Assembly (NCBI RefSeq): GCF_009914755.1
Contig: NC_060934.1
From: the human T2T-CHM13v2.0 reference genome, Homo sapiens
Length of the DNA: 64,000 nt
Direction: 5' to 3' (one strand)
Part shown: positions 15,911 to 20,394 of the stretch, piece after piece
Numbering within the stretch: position 1 is the stretch's first letter
Layout of the letters: every line of letters begins with the position of its first letter
Translations under genes and position numbers: made by a program
The notes under the pieces: model-generated
The model's database searches: none
Told to the model about the DNA's origin: nothing
What the model saw: the letters and a program-made list of their open reading frames with translations, nothing else

Positions 15911-18900
15911 TGATATGGTTTGGCTGTGTCCCCACCCAAATCTCATCTTGAATTGTAGCTCCCATAATTCCCACAACTTGCGTGAGGGACCTGGTGGGAG
16001 ATAATTGAATCATGGGGGCGGTTTCCCCCATACTGTTCTCATGATAGTGAATAAGTCTCATGAGATCTGCTGGTTTTATAAGGGGTTTCTCCTTTTGCTT
16101 GGCTCTCATTCACTCTTGCCTGCCACCATGTAAGACATGCCTTTCACCTTCTGCCATAATTGTGAGGCCTCCCCAGCCATATGGAACTGAGTCCATTAAA
16201 CCTCTTTTTCTTTATAAATTATCCAGTCTCAGGTATGCCTTTATCAGCAGCATGAAAATGGACTAATACAGTAAATTGGTACTGGGAGTGGGGCACTGCT
16301 GTAAAGATACCCAATAATGTGGAAGCAACTTTGAAACTGGGTAACAGGCAGAGGTTGGAACAGTTTGGAGGGCTCAAAAGAAGATAGGAAAATGTGGAAA
16401 GTTTGGAACTTCCTACAGATTTGTTGAACAGCTTTGACCAAAATGCTGATAATGATATGGACAATGAAATCCAGGCTGAGGTGGTCTCAGATGGGAATGA
16501 GGAACTTGTTGGGAACTGGAGTAAAGGTGACTCTTGCTATATTTTAGCAAAGAGAATGGCAGCATTTTGCCCCTGCCCTAGAGATCTATGGAACTTTTAA
16601 CTTGAAGGAGATGATTTAGAGTATCTGGCCAAAACAATTTCTAAGCAGCAAAGCATTCAAGATGTGACTTGGGTGCTGTTAAAAGCATTCAGTTTTAAAA
16701 GGGAAACAAAGCATAAAAGTTCAAAAAATTTGCAGTCTGAGGATGCGATAGAAAAGAAAAACCCATTTTCTGAGGAGAAATTCAAGCCAGCTGCAGAAAT
16801 TTGCATAAATAACAAGTAGACAAATGTTTATCACCAACACAATGGGAAAAATGTCTCCAGGGCATGTCAGAGATCTTTGTGGCAGCCCCTCCCACTATAG
16901 GCCCAAAGTCCTAGGAAAAAAAATGGTTTTGTGGGCCAGGTCCAGGACCCTCCTGCTGTGTGCAACCTAGGGACTTGGTGCCCCACATCCCAGCTGCTCT
17001 AGCCATGGCTAAAAGGGGCCAAGGTATAGCTCAGGCCATTGCTTCAGAGTGTGCAAGTCCCAAGCCTTGGCAGCTTCCACATGGTGTTGAGCCTGCGGGA
17101 GCACAGAAGTCAAGAACTGAGGTTTGGGAACCTCTGCCTAGATTTCAGAGGATGTATGGAAATGCCTGGTTGTCCAGGCAGAAGTGTGCTGCAGGGATGG
17201 AGCCCTCATGGAGAACCTCTGCTAAGGCAGTGCGGAAGGGAAATGTGGGGTGCAAGCCCCCACAAAGAGTCCCCACTGGGGCACTGCCTAGTGGAGCTAT
17301 GAGAGGAGGGCCACTGTCCTCCAGACCCCATAATGGTAGATCAACCAACAGCTTGCACCATGCACCTGGAAAATCCACAAACACTCAACATCAGCCTGTG
17401 AAAGCAGCCATAAGGGGGGCTATACCCTGCAAAGCCACAGGGGTAGAGCTGCCCAAGGCTGTGGAAGCCCATCTGTTGCATCAGCGTGGCCTGGATTGAG
17501 ACATGGAGTCAAAAGATATCATTTTGGAGCTTTAAGATTTGACTGCCCCAGTGGATTTCAGATTTGCATGGGGCCTGTATGTAACCACTTTGTTTTGGCC
17601 AATTTCTCCCATTTGGAACAGTTGTATTTACCCAATGCCTGCACCTCCATCGTATGTAGGAAGTAACTAACTTGCTTTTGATTTTACAGGCTCATAAGTG
17701 GAAGGGACTTGACTTGTCTCAGATGAGACTTTGGACTGTGGACTTTTGAGTTAATGCTGAAATGAGTTAAAACTTTGGGAGATTGTTGGGAAGGCATGAT
17801 TGGTTTTGAAATGTGAAAACATAAGATTTGGGAGGGACCAAGAAGGGAATTATATGGTTTGCCTGTGTCCCCACCCAAATCTCACCTTGAATTGTAGCTC
17901 CCATAATTCCCACATGTTATAGGAGGAACCTGGTGGTGGGAGATAATTGAATCATGGGGGCAGTTTCCCCCATACTGTTCTTGTGGTATTGAATAAGTCT
18001 TACAAGATCTGCTGGTTTTATAAGGGGTTTCTCCCTTTTGCTTGGCTCTCATTCTCTCTTGCCTGCCACCACGTAAGACATGCCTTTCACCTTCGCCATG
18101 ATCATGAGGCCTCCCCAGCCATGTGAAACTGTGAGTCCACTAAACTCTTTTTCTTTATAAATTACCTAGTCTCGGCGCACGCAGCTCGCGCCCAGCGCTC
18201 TCCAGCCGGGGTGGTGGCGGCAGCAGCAGCGGCGGGGGAGGGGTGCGGCGGGGGAGGGGTGCGGCGGAGGAGGGGAGGAGGCCTGGCCCCGCGGTCGCAG
18301 CCGCCACCGCCCACCCCGACCTCCCGGACCGCCGCGGGGCCATGGGCCTGAGCCCCGGATTCGCGCTCCGGATTCGCCTCGGCTCGGCCGCGCGTATATT
18401 TGCCTTCCCTCCATGATCTCCAACACTATCCAATAAAGTAGAAGCAACTGAGGTACCATGAAAGAGAAAGAAGCTGGAACTGAGGAAAAGCAGAGGCTGG
18501 AGTGCAGTGGCGTGATCTTGGCTCACTACAACCTCCATCTCCCAGCCGCCTGCCTTGGCCTCCCAAAGTGCCGAGATTGCAGCCCCTGCCCGGCCGCCAC
18601 CCCGTCTGGAAAGAAGTGAGGAGCATCTCTGCCCGGCCGCCCATCGTCTGAGATGTGGGGTGCACCTCTGCCCCGCCACCCCGTCTGGGATGTGAGGAGC
18701 GCCTCTGCCCGGCTGCGACCCCGTCTGGGAGGTGAGGAGCGTCTCTGCCCGGCCGCCCTGTCTGAGAAGTGAGGAGCCCCTCCGGCCGGCAGCCACCCCG
18801 TCTGGGAAGTGAGGAGCGTCTCCGCCCGGCAGCCGCCCCGTCCGGGAGGGAGGTGGGGGGACAGCCCCCGCCCGGCCAGCCGCCCCGTCCGGGAGGGAGG

Positions 18901-19526
18901 TGGGGGGTGCCTCTGCCCGGCCGCCACCCCGTCTGGGAGGTGTACCCAACAGCTCATTGAGAACGGGCCATGATGACGATGGCAGTTTTGTTGAATAGAA
19001 AAGGGGGAAATGTGGGGAAAAGATAGAGAAATCAGATTGATGCTGTGTCTGTGTAGAAAGAAGTAGACATAGGGGACTCCATTTTGTTCTGTACTAAGAA
19101 AAATTCTTCTGCCTTGGGATGCTGTTATCTATGACCTTACCCCCAACCCGGTGCTCTCTGAAACATGTGCTGTGTCCACTTAGGGTTAAATGGATTAAGG
19201 GCGGTGCAAGATGTGCTTTGTTAAACAGATGCTTGAAGGCAGCATGCTCGTTAAGAGTCATCACCACTCCTTAATCTCAAGTACCCAGGGACACAAACAC
19301 TGTGGAAGGCCCCAGGGTCCTCTGCCTAGGAAAACCAGAGAGCTTTGTTTACTTGTTTATCTGCTGATCTTCCCTCCACTATTGTCCTATGACCCTGCCA
19401 AATCCCCCTCTGCGAGAAACACCCAAGAATGATCAATAAATAAATAAATAAGAAAAAATAAATAAATAAATAAATTACCTAGTCTCAGGTATGTCTTTAT
19501 CAGCAGCGTGAAAATGGACTAATACA
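15911..19526 (+). mobile_element. Full-length THE1 (MaLR) provirus: 5' LTR 15911-16270, internal 16271-17849, 3' LTR 17850-19526 interrupted by an SVA
   Basis: Both LTRs start T(G/T)ATATGGTTTG..TGTGTCCCCACCCAAATCTCA and end GGACTAATACA; the internal region starts GTAAATTGGTAC; purine tract before the 3' LTR; 5-bp target duplication AGCAG (15906-15910) / AGCGG (19527-19531). Confidence 0.95.
18174..19469 (+). mobile_element. SVA retrotransposon with a heterologous 5' leader (18174-18495), partial Alu-like domain from 18496, short VNTR (about 18580-18940), SINE-R (about 18940-19440) and (TAAA)n-patterned tail
   Basis: VNTR units CCCCGTCTGGGAxGTGAGGAGCG; SINE-R TGTACCCAACAGCTCATTGAGAAC..CACCCAAGAATGATCAATAAA; perfect 17-bp target duplication ATAAATTACCTAGTCTC at 18157-18173 and 19470-19486; no CCCTCT hexamer. 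Confidence 0.95.
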
Positions 19527-20394
19527 AGCGGAAACATAGCTCCCTCTGCACTCACCTCTGGCCATTCTCAGTAAGATCAGGTAGGCAAGAGGTGGGCAGA
19601 GGTGGAAGAGGCAGGAACAAACCTATCTGGAAGTAGGGCTCTCAAACCTGCCCTGCTCATATCAGCAGATAACTCACTGTACAGCGTATACCCTAGAGGC
19701 TCTTTGCTCTTGCTACCCAGAGATGTCACTTTTTATATTTGTATAAAAACATGAAAAGCTGGCCAGGCACAGTGGCTCATGCCTGTAATGCCAATGATTT
19801 GGGAGGCCAAGGCAGGAGGATCACTTGAAGCCAAGAGTTCAAGACCACCCTGGGCAACATAACAGGACCCTGTCTCTACAAAAAATTCAAAAATTAGCTG
19901 GGCATGGAGGCACATGCCTGTAGTCCTAGCTACTCAGGAGGCTGGGGTGGGAGGATCACTTGAGCCCAGGAGTTTGAGGCTGCGATGAGCTATGATCACC
20001 CCACTGCACTCCAGCCTGGGCAACAAGCAAGGGCAAAAGAGCAAGACCTTTTCTCTTAAAAACAAAGAAACAAACAAACATTAAAAAGCTGCATAGTGAC
20101 AAAGAAGCCAAAATAAGAAGAGTCAGCAAAATGGCAAAATGGACTTAAATTGTAGACGTCATCAAGACATGATAAGCTTCCCCACTTGGTGAATTAAAAT
20201 CCCATCATACTGTATTTAATTTAGTAGAATTTGACTACACATGCACAGTCAAGACCAAATGTGATTTTACTGTTTATTTATTTATTTTTAGACAGTCTCG
20301 CTCTGTCGCCCAGGCTGGAGTGCAGGGTGCAATCTTGGCTCGCTAAAACTTCTGCCTCCTGGGTTCAAGTGATTCTCCTGCCTCAGCCTCCTGA

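What the first reader, a model, noticed from the sequence alone, without database searches (positions are those of the whole stretch)
18174..18495. SVA carrying a captured 322-nt CpG-island leader from an unidentified gene (5' transduction by splicing, apparently not MAST2)
Seen: the 17-bp target duplication encloses leader plus SVA, so they were inserted as one RNA. The hexamer and most of the Alu-like domain are missing. The junction ..GAAAAGCAGAG|GCTGGAGTGCAGTGG falls exactly where the SVA consensus reads GCCCAG|GCTGGAG, a known cryptic 3' splice acceptor. The leader is very GC-rich to about 18395, then turns purine-rich, like a first exon plus possibly a second exon. The insert starts with G, possibly a copied cap. 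Known: SVAs can trap upstream exons and mobilise them (SVA_F1 with MAST2 exon 1); this leader and junction differ from that family as I recall it. Inference: a source SVA in an intron of another gene was driven by that gene's promoter, possibly founding a small separate subfamily.
Basis: partly seen in the sequence, partly recalled or inferred. Interest (0 to 1): 0.8.

Follow-up and report, generated by a model that had tools for sequence, protein, structure and literature searches.

The report
SVA carrying spliced chr17 leader exons
This is an old SVA retrotransposon whose usual front end was replaced, by RNA splicing, with the first two exons of a chromosome 17 transcript that starts beside CHD3; this kind of exon capture is well known, so it is a tidy but ordinary example.

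Summary
A 17-bp target duplication (18157-18173 / 19470-19486) encloses a 322-nt leader plus an SVA that lacks the hexamer and most of the Alu-like domain.

The leader maps to chromosome 17 of the same genome, minus strand, in two blocks 1.8 kb apart. Each block ends at a GT donor, and the second follows a CAG acceptor. The exon 1/2 boundary is at 18394|18395. The source transcript starts 83 bp inside intron 1 of a CHD4 paralogue (CHD3 by recall), antisense to it. It runs towards NAA38.

The SVA junction lies at TGCCCAG|GCTGGAG, as in 20 of 21 canonical copies. That is 50 nt upstream of the acceptor used by a 70-copy group that I take to be SVA_F1.

A chr8 copy has the same junction and shares private changes with this one. 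A chr6 copy carries exons 1, 2 and a third exon, joined to a different Alu-like acceptor of a younger SVA subfamily. The same leader was therefore probably captured twice.

No source SVA remains in the 60 kb of chr17 that I scanned.

The mechanism has been known since 2009. I could not check whether this group is already catalogued.

The parts
18157..18173 (+). 5' copy of the 17-bp target-site duplication. The implied bottom-strand nick is TTTAT/AAAG.
   Evidence: (D8); single copy in the paralogous host repeat at 16214-16230
18174..18174 (+). Untemplated G at the 5' end, possibly copied from the mRNA cap.
   Evidence: The source reads C at this position. The chr8 sibling has the same feature at a start 20 nt further upstream.
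18175..18394 (+). Captured exon 1, a CpG-island leader. It equals chr17 7,790,766..7,790,497 on the minus strand, with a much shorter GGC repeat and one extra 16-nt unit.
   Evidence: 16-nt repeat (D7)
18395..18495 (+). Captured exon 2 (101 nt). It equals chr17 7,788,663..7,788,563 on the minus strand, with 4 differences.
18496..18585 (+). The rest of the SVA Alu-like domain, starting directly after the cryptic acceptor AG of canonical copies. The acceptor used by the F1-like group (CTCCCAG|CCGCC, 18545|18546) is present and unused.
18586..18939 (+). SVA VNTR, in units of about 37-40 nt.
   Evidence: D1-D5
18940..19432 (+). SINE-R of an older SVA subfamily.
   Evidence: (the 39 other scored copies are 96-98% identical)
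19433..19469 (+). AATAAA signal (19435-19440) and a degenerate A-tail. The (AAAT)n AAG start of the tail is shared with the chr8 sibling.
19470..19486 (+). 3' copy of the target-site duplication.
   Evidence: D8

Best explanation
The insert 18174-19469 is a processed copy of a chimeric RNA, and I read its history as follows.

1. An SVA of an older subfamily once lay, in sense orientation, in an intron of a minus-strand transcription unit on chr17. That unit starts in the CpG island of a CHD4 paralogue (CHD3 by recall), 83 bp inside its intron 1 and antisense to it. It runs towards NAA38.
2. Transcription from that promoter was followed by normal exon 1 to exon 2 splicing.
3. The exon 2 donor was then spliced to a cryptic AG acceptor in the SVA Alu-like domain (TGCCCAG|GCTGGAG).
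4. The RNA was polyadenylated at the SVA's own AATAAA signal.
5. LINE-1 proteins reverse-transcribed the capped RNA in full at a TTTAT/AAAG nick on chr10, which produced the 17-bp target duplication.

Shown here: the exon blocks and their splice signals; the AG in canonical SVAs; the target duplication, tail and nick site; and a sibling with the same junction.

Inferred: that the source SVA sat in the intron (none is there now), and that LINE-1 did the copying.

I think the chr8 and chr10 copies are most likely siblings from one source SVA (about 0.55), rather than parent and daughter.

The chr6 copy (exons 1-2-3 joined to another acceptor of a younger SVA) is most likely a second, independent capture from the same promoter (about 0.75).
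For: Source blocks. maps the leader to chr17 in blocks at 7,790,727-766, 7,790,497-680 and 7,788,563-664 (98%, 93% and 96% identity). The gap between the first two blocks is a GGC repeat.

Splice signals. One search shows ...GCCGCGCG|GTGGGT after exon 1, and TTTCAG|TATATT and ...GCAGAG|GTAGGG around exon 2.

Acceptor. One search shows AG directly before the junction in 20 of 21 canonical copies.

Insertion marks. The target duplication is and the paralogous empty site.

chr8 sibling. It aligns to bases 2-1296 of the insert at 88% with the same junction. With chr10 it shares 4 SINE-R states that 27 or 28 of 28 other subfamily members lack. It also shares the GGAAAGAAGTGAG variant and the (AAAT)n AAG start of the tail.

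chr6 copy. It carries exon 3, which equals chr17 7,771,884..7,771,817 (68 of 68 identical) and is flanked there by CAG| and |GTAAGG. Exon 3 is joined to ACGGGGTTTCGC, the Alu-like sequence that canonical copies show directly after ...GGTGGAG.

Copy number. Exon 2 occurs at only 4 places genome-wide and exon 3 at 2.

Start points. The three copies start within 30 nt of each other in the source (7,790,786, 7,790,766 and 7,790,757). Two of the three carry an untemplated G.

Literature. Splicing of upstream exons into SVA acceptors, followed by retrotransposition, is established (passages read).
Against: No VNTR or SINE-R sequence lies anywhere in chr17 7,740,001-7,800,000 of this assembly. The intronic source SVA, or two of them, is therefore postulated and not seen.

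The name and annotation of the source transcript could not be looked up.

The start of the target duplication is blurred by the A/T-rich tail, and its last two bases (TC) also match the source.

Identity of exon 1 to the source is only 93%, because of the unstable GGC repeat and CpG changes.

A role for LINE-1 rests on hallmarks only.
Confidence: 0.9

Rival explanations
1. The chr10 copy is a secondary copy. It was transcribed from the chr8 element, or from an unseen leader-bearing master, with the captured CpG-island leader acting as an internal promoter, as is reported for SVA_F1.
For: chr8 and chr10 share private SINE-R states, a VNTR-start variant, the start of the tail and one leader substitution (GGCGGAGGAGGGG, against GGCGGGGGAGGGG in the source). 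The chr10 leader starts 20 nt inside the chr8 leader. The exon 1 part of the leader still scores as a CpG island, with an observed/expected ratio of 0.91.
Against: All the shared states are equally expected for two offspring of one intronic source. The independent chr6 copy starts only 9 nt from the chr10 start, so that window is a natural cluster of start sites at the native promoter. Only two copies exist, so there is no sign of amplification.
Confidence: 0.3
2. There was a single capture. One exon1-2-3-SVA element arose first. The chr8/chr10 form came from it by renewed splicing from the exon 2 donor to the downstream acceptor. The subfamily difference would then be due to later recombination or gene conversion.
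For: The chr6 form contains everything needed: the exon 2 donor context and the downstream AG|GCTGGAG site.
Against: The chr6 SINE-R differs from the consensus of the chr10-type subfamily at 26 of 496 columns. At 14 of these all 28 panel copies agree against it, and at 3 more they do so 27 to 1. Its 39 other scored genome matches are 98-99% identical, and none of their coordinates recur among the chr10 query's 40 scored matches. The more complete form sits on the younger SVA, which is the wrong order for this scenario. The chr6 Alu-like part shows no switch of type.
Confidence: 0.08
3. The chimera arose without cis-splicing, either by trans-splicing or by template switching of the reverse transcriptase from SVA RNA to an abundant spliced chr17 transcript.
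For: No source SVA is present in the chr17 introns. The same donor transcript is joined to two different SVA subfamilies.
Against: Both junctions fall exactly at an exon 3' end followed by GT in the source, and exactly after an AG in canonical SVAs. Template switching would not respect both boundaries twice. Source elements are often absent from a reference; the SVA_F1 source is described as a polymorphic SVA_F in the passage read.
Confidence: 0.03
4. This is an ordinary unspliced 5' transduction of flanking DNA, or a DNA-level duplication.
For: None found.
Against: The leader is split over two genomic blocks 1.8 kb apart with splice signals. Each of the three copies has its own flanks, target duplication and A-tail.
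Confidence: 0.01

Closest known systems
SVA_F1 (MAST2 exon 1 fused to SVA_F; described in 2009 by Damert, Hancks and Bantysh, none of whose papers I could read)
   Same: A GC-rich first exon of a host gene replaces the hexamer and most of the Alu-like domain through splicing into a cryptic acceptor near the 3' end of that domain. The target duplication encloses leader plus SVA. Leader length varies between copies (passages; my own look at three copies).
   Different: The leader comes from chr17, not from the group's ATG-bearing leader. Two exons are captured instead of one. The acceptor lies 50 nt further upstream (GCCCAG|GCTGG against CTCCCAG|CCGCC). The SVA body belongs to an older subfamily. 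There are 2 copies, against 70 pattern matches here and 84 in the literature.
Chimpanzee pt_SVA_D6 (STK40 exon 1 fused to SVA_D; Damert 2018, PMC6139936, section 10 read)
   Same: A first exon of a host gene was acquired by splicing and replaces the hexamer and Alu-like region.
   Different: Different species, gene and subfamily. It has 94 members, many with further captured exons. Its acceptor cannot be reconstructed from the consensus, whereas here the acceptor is plain.
Single spliced exonic 5' transductions in polymorphic human SVAs (MRPS18A, LINC02916, UQCRC1; PMC12593883, passages read)
   Same: These are one-off captures of upstream exons. They arose by splicing into the Alu region, or by exon 1 to exon 2 splicing before the SVA. 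This shows that the process recurs.
   Different: Those are recent, non-reference insertions of young subfamilies. MRPS18A uses the F1 acceptor, which this element does not use.
Genome-wide inventory of 5'-transduced SVAs (Damert et al. 2009, about 8% of human SVAs by my recall of the abstract; not held)
   Same: [quoted passage not shown] This reference element is likely to be listed there.
   Different: I could not check this. No SVA paper in the searchable library names CHD3, NAA38 or LSMD1 as a donor.

Membership tests
SVA retrotransposon | VNTR of about 35-50-nt GC-rich units | tested here: met
   families D1-D5, 18568-18942
SVA retrotransposon | SINE-R domain ending in AATAAA plus an A-tail | tested here: met
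   (2345 first-look candidates; the 39 other scored matches are 96-98% identical over 493 nt)
SVA retrotransposon | 5' (CCCTCT)n hexamer and a full Alu-like domain | tested here: not met
   Replaced by the leader. Only about 90 nt of the Alu-like domain remain. This is therefore a non-canonical structural variant.
SVA retrotransposon | LINE-1-type insertion marks: target duplication, A-tail, T-rich nick site | tested here: met
   17-bp duplication; nick TTTAT/AAAG read; empty-site paralogue
Spliced 5' transduction (exon trapping by SVA) | The leader maps elsewhere in separate exon blocks that end at GT donors. | tested here: met
Spliced 5' transduction (exon trapping by SVA) | The junction falls directly after an AG in canonical SVA copies. 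| tested here: met
   20 of 21 canonical copies
Spliced 5' transduction (exon trapping by SVA) | A sense-oriented source SVA lies in the intron downstream of the donor exon. | tested here: not met
   No VNTR or SINE-R in chr17 7,740,001-7,800,000 of this assembly. Other haplotypes and apes were not testable.
Spliced 5' transduction (exon trapping by SVA) | The insertion is absent at the orthologous site of outgroup species. | not testable with these tools
   No ape genomes are held.
SVA_F1 | The leader is MAST2 exon 1. | tested here: not met
   The leader maps to chr17 and has no chr1 match. The leader of the 70-copy group is a different sequence. That it is MAST2 rests on my recall.
SVA_F1 | Junction at the F1 acceptor | tested here: not met
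   70 of 80 pattern matches read GCAG|CCGCCTGCC. That site is 50 nt downstream of this element's junction.

The most novel reading that the evidence does not exclude
The CpG-island promoter that fires antisense from intron 1 of the chr17 CHD4 paralogue is a recurrent donor. Its leader exons were captured at least twice, by SVAs of two subfamilies of different age. The two captures used two different Alu-like acceptors, and neither is the F1 acceptor. The chr8/chr10 pair would then be an F1-like, promoter-carrying SVA lineage that arose millions of years before SVA_F1 but failed to spread. If so, a few germline-active promoters seed most promoter-bearing SVAs, and carrying a CpG-island leader is not enough for success.
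Probability: 0.5. Interest if true: 0.45.

Novelty: new member of a known kind. Interest (0 to 1): 0.3.

Why it matters
It is a clean, fully traceable example of exon capture by SVA: the start site, two splice junctions, the acceptor, the target duplication and a sibling are all readable.

Together with the chr6 copy it shows three different Alu-like acceptors in use in one genome. It also shows one promoter that was probably tapped twice.

That bears on two questions. One is how often SVAs acquire promoters. The other is why only SVA_F1 amplified. It does not change the known picture of the mechanism.

The copies also preserve old states of a GGC repeat that is long and uninterrupted at the source today.

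Tried and rejected
Papers not held. Damert 2009, Hancks 2009 and Hancks & Kazazian 2010 are not in the library. I could not see whether these three elements are already listed, and supplements of those papers may bear on the novelty claim.

Literature searches.
- SVA + transduction + CHD3/NAA38/LSMD1: 26 papers held at least 3 of the 5 terms and 15 were listed. None concerns SVA capture from these genes.
- NAA38/CHD3/antisense: 12 of 279 papers were listed, none relevant.
- The 2023 SVA landscape paper (passages) says nothing on this group.

Naming the source transcript. There is no annotation tool for chr17. I placed it by translation instead.
- A minus-strand frame 9 kb downstream of exon 3 matches NAA38 of PDB entry 7mx2 at E = 6.5e-36.
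- The plus-strand gene matches CHD4 PHD finger 1 and has an acidic first exon.
- Calling it CHD3 is recall. One table lists a repeat call under both CHD3 and NAA38 with equal counts, which is only a hint that the two annotations overlap.
- A p53-family search served only to orient myself on chr17.

Looking for SVA_F1 at this element's acceptor. Screens for non-canonical bases at -4, -2 or -5 before GCTGGAG gave 15, 11 and 19 matches and no large group. I fetched 11 of these. They were 3 ordinary Alus, 5 canonical SVAs with a point change, and a trio with a shared internal deletion. The large group turned up at the next AG downstream.

Subfamily names (A to F) were not assigned, because no consensus library is available. 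I speak only of 'older' and 'younger'.

CpG retention is no guide to methylation history. Each row of that count also includes one artefact from my source string, so the true mismatches are 7, 4 and 7 of 221.

The chr6-type panel was therefore not aligned.

Full report
**What is in the window.** Bases 18174-19469 are one insert on the + strand.

- It is bounded by a perfect 17-bp direct repeat, ATAAATTACCTAGTCTC, at 18157-18173 and 19470-19486 (family D8).
- A 90%-identical paralogue of the host repeat in the same window (16008-16270) aligns to the left flank up to 16230. It aligns to the right flank from 16214, so it holds a single copy of the 17-mer.
- The insert ends in AATAAA (19435-19440) and a degenerate A-tail.
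- Read, the nick implied on the bottom strand is TTTAT/AAAG. That is close to the LINE-1 endonuclease preference, which I cite from recall.
- Inside the insert lie a VNTR of 37-40-nt units (D1-D5) and a 493-nt SINE-R. The 39 other scored genome matches to that SINE-R are 96-98% identical.
- There is no hexamer, and only the last ~90 nt of the Alu-like domain are present.

**Where the leader comes from.** I searched the window's own genome with 18174-18495 and got 15 matches.

- One is the query itself.
- Two are sibling copies, on chr6 and chr8.
- Three are blocks on chr17, minus strand: 7,790,727-766 (98%), 7,790,497-680 (93%) and 7,788,563-664 (96%).
- Nine are weak hits to the GGC-rich part only.

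The first two chr17 blocks are one exon interrupted in the alignment by a long GGC repeat. In the chr17 DNA exon 1 ends ...GCCGCGCG|GTGGGT. Exon 2 is preceded by TTCCGTTTCAG| and ends ...GCAGAG|GTAGGG. The exon 1/exon 2 join in the window is at 18394|18395. That is exactly where GC drops from 0.81 to 0.42.

**What the source is.**

- On the + strand of the same chr17 stretch lies an acidic first coding exon (7,790,139-7,790,414) with the donor CCAG|GTAAGC.
- About 9.5 kb further on lies a PHD-finger exon whose best solved match is CHD4 (E = 1.2e-36). CHD4 itself is elsewhere in the genome, so I take this gene to be CHD3; that name is recall.
- The captured exon 1 (7,790,786..7,790,497, minus) lies 83 bp inside that gene's intron 1 and antisense to it, within one CpG island (GC 0.70-0.89 over 7,790,001-7,791,000).
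- About 9 kb downstream of exon 3, on the same strand, lie coding exons that match NAA38 of PDB entry 7mx2 at E = 6.5e-36.
- I could not look up whether the three exons are annotated as 5' exons of NAA38 or as a separate non-coding RNA.

**Siblings.** Exon 2 occurs at four places in the genome: the source and three copies.

The chr8 copy (about 766,700 down to 765,340, minus):
- It aligns to bases 2-1296 of the insert at 88% and has the identical ...GCAGAG|GCTGGAG junction.
- It has its own flanks and a 15-nt target duplication with one mismatch.
- It starts 20 nt further upstream in the source.

The chr10 and chr8 copies share several private features:
- Four SINE-R states that 27 or 28 of 28 other members of their subfamily lack.
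- A GGAAAGAAGTGAG variant at the VNTR start that none of the canonical copies shown has.
- An (AAAT)n AAG start to the tail.
- One substitution in the leader.

They therefore descend from one progenitor. Both begin with a G where the source reads C.

**A second capture.** The chr6 copy (131,996,518 onward, +):
- It has a 12-bp target duplication.
- It starts 9 nt downstream of the chr10 start and carries exon 1 and exon 2.
- It then carries a 68-nt third exon, identical to chr17 7,771,884..7,771,817. That exon is flanked in the source by TTTCAG| and |GTAAGG and is found nowhere else in the genome.
- Exon 3 is joined to ACGGGGTTTCGC..., the Alu-like sequence that canonical copies show directly after ...GGTGGAG. 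This copy therefore retains 128 nt more of the Alu-like domain.

Its SINE-R is of another subfamily:
- It differs from the consensus of the chr10-type panel at 26 of 496 columns, against 11 for chr10 and 14 for chr8. At 14 of the 26, all 28 panel copies agree against it, and at 3 more 27 of 28 do.
- Its 39 other scored genome matches are 98-99% identical. None of their coordinates recur among the chr10 query's 40 scored matches.
- The higher identity among its relatives suggests a younger subfamily.
- The more complete leader thus sits on the younger SVA, so it cannot derive from the chr8/chr10 form, nor the reverse.

The simplest reading is two separate captures from one promoter, at different times.

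**The acceptor, and SVA_F1.** In 20 of 21 canonical SVAs that align from the junction base, the upstream bases are TGCCCAG; one reads CCCAA.

To compare with SVA_F1 I screened the genome for copies with non-canonical bases before this site. I found 15, 11 and 19 matches and no large group.

The same screen at the next AG downstream gave 80 matches, and 70 of them read GCAG|CCGCCTGCC. Three of these 70 copies were fetched. All three share a GC-rich leader directly before the junction. In two it is long and contains an ATG (translation MKRSRCRDRPQ..., taken from one copy); in the third only its last ~60 nt remain. By its size and structure this group is SVA_F1. [quoted passage not shown] That the leader is MAST2 is my recall.

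The F1 acceptor lies 50 nt downstream of the one used here. In the window it is intact and unused, at 18545|18546. At least three Alu-like acceptors have therefore been used in this genome.

**What is missing.** A BLAST of both full elements against chr17 7,740,001-7,800,000 found only Alu-type matches and no VNTR or SINE-R. The intronic source SVA, or more likely two of them, is inferred and not observed. The same holds for SVA_F1, whose origin is described as splicing into a 'polymorphic SVA_F' (passage).

**Rivals.**
- A parent-daughter relation between chr8 and chr10 cannot be excluded. I rate it lower because the independent chr6 copy shows that the native promoter starts transcripts across the same 30-nt window.
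- A single capture followed by re-splicing is contradicted by the subfamily data.
- Template switching or trans-splicing would not hit an exon end and an AG precisely, twice.
- An unspliced flank or a DNA duplication is excluded by the split source and by the separate target duplications.

**Age (rough inference only).**
- The chr10 and chr8 SINE-Rs differ from their subfamily consensus at 11 and 14 of 496 columns, five of them shared columns.
- In the non-repeat part of the leader the copies differ from the source at 7, 4 and 7 of 221 positions. One search reports 8, 5 and 8 of 222, but one in each row is an artefact of my source string.
- These values fit insertions several million years old, well before the human-specific SVA_F1. 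Only ape genomes can date them.

**Novelty.** Exon capture by SVA and 5'-transduction groups made of spliced mRNA parts have been in print since 2009 (cited). A genome-wide inventory of such reference elements exists, but I could not read it. My library searches found no SVA paper that names CHD3, NAA38 or LSMD1 as a donor; supplements were not searched. I therefore file this as a new, or at least not visibly described, member of a known kind. The probable double capture and the third acceptor are its only unusual points.

Noticed in passing
L026 about 1100-1262 and L030 about 2233-2400 (G000 chr17:65.74 Mb and chr17:47.39 Mb): Two SVAs of the same older subfamily share an identical non-SVA stretch that looks like a sense-strand Alu. 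It is joined directly to the VNTR at ...AACTGGGCATG|CCCGTCTGGGATG. This looks like another small 5'-replacement or transduction group.
   Followed up: no
L054, L055, L056 (G000 chr1:44.99 Mb, chr10:9.28 Mb, chr16:93.79 Mb): Three SVAs that keep the hexamer share an internal deletion of the middle of the Alu-like domain (...CTGACTGGTTTTT|GCTGGAG). Its 3' edge is exactly the acceptor boundary used by the element studied here. This may be internal splicing of SVA RNA.
   Followed up: partly
G000 chr17:7,790,640-7,790,725 (L018 about 640-725), compared with window 18205-18235: The source exon 1 holds an uninterrupted GGC run of roughly 28 units in this genome. The three retrocopies hold only about 8-14 units, interrupted by GGT or AGC. 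The copies may preserve older, shorter states of the repeat, or the interruptions may be later CpG decay.
   Followed up: partly
window 16008-16270 and 17950-18173 / 19470-19545: Two copies of the same old interspersed repeat lie 2 kb apart in the same orientation and are 90% identical. The SVA sits in the second one. I did not identify the repeat family.
   Followed up: no
L019 3690-3730 (chr6 copy, 3' part of captured exon 1): Seven substitutions, mostly transversions, cluster within about 40 nt of exon 1. Exons 2 and 3 of the same copy are 100% identical to the source. This local burst of change is unexplained.
   Followed up: no
G000 chr16:28.73-29.34 Mb (four matches): Four SVA-like copies read TCAA|CCGCCTGCC at the F1-type boundary within 0.6 Mb of chr16. 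They are probably one variant copied by segmental duplication.
   Followed up: no
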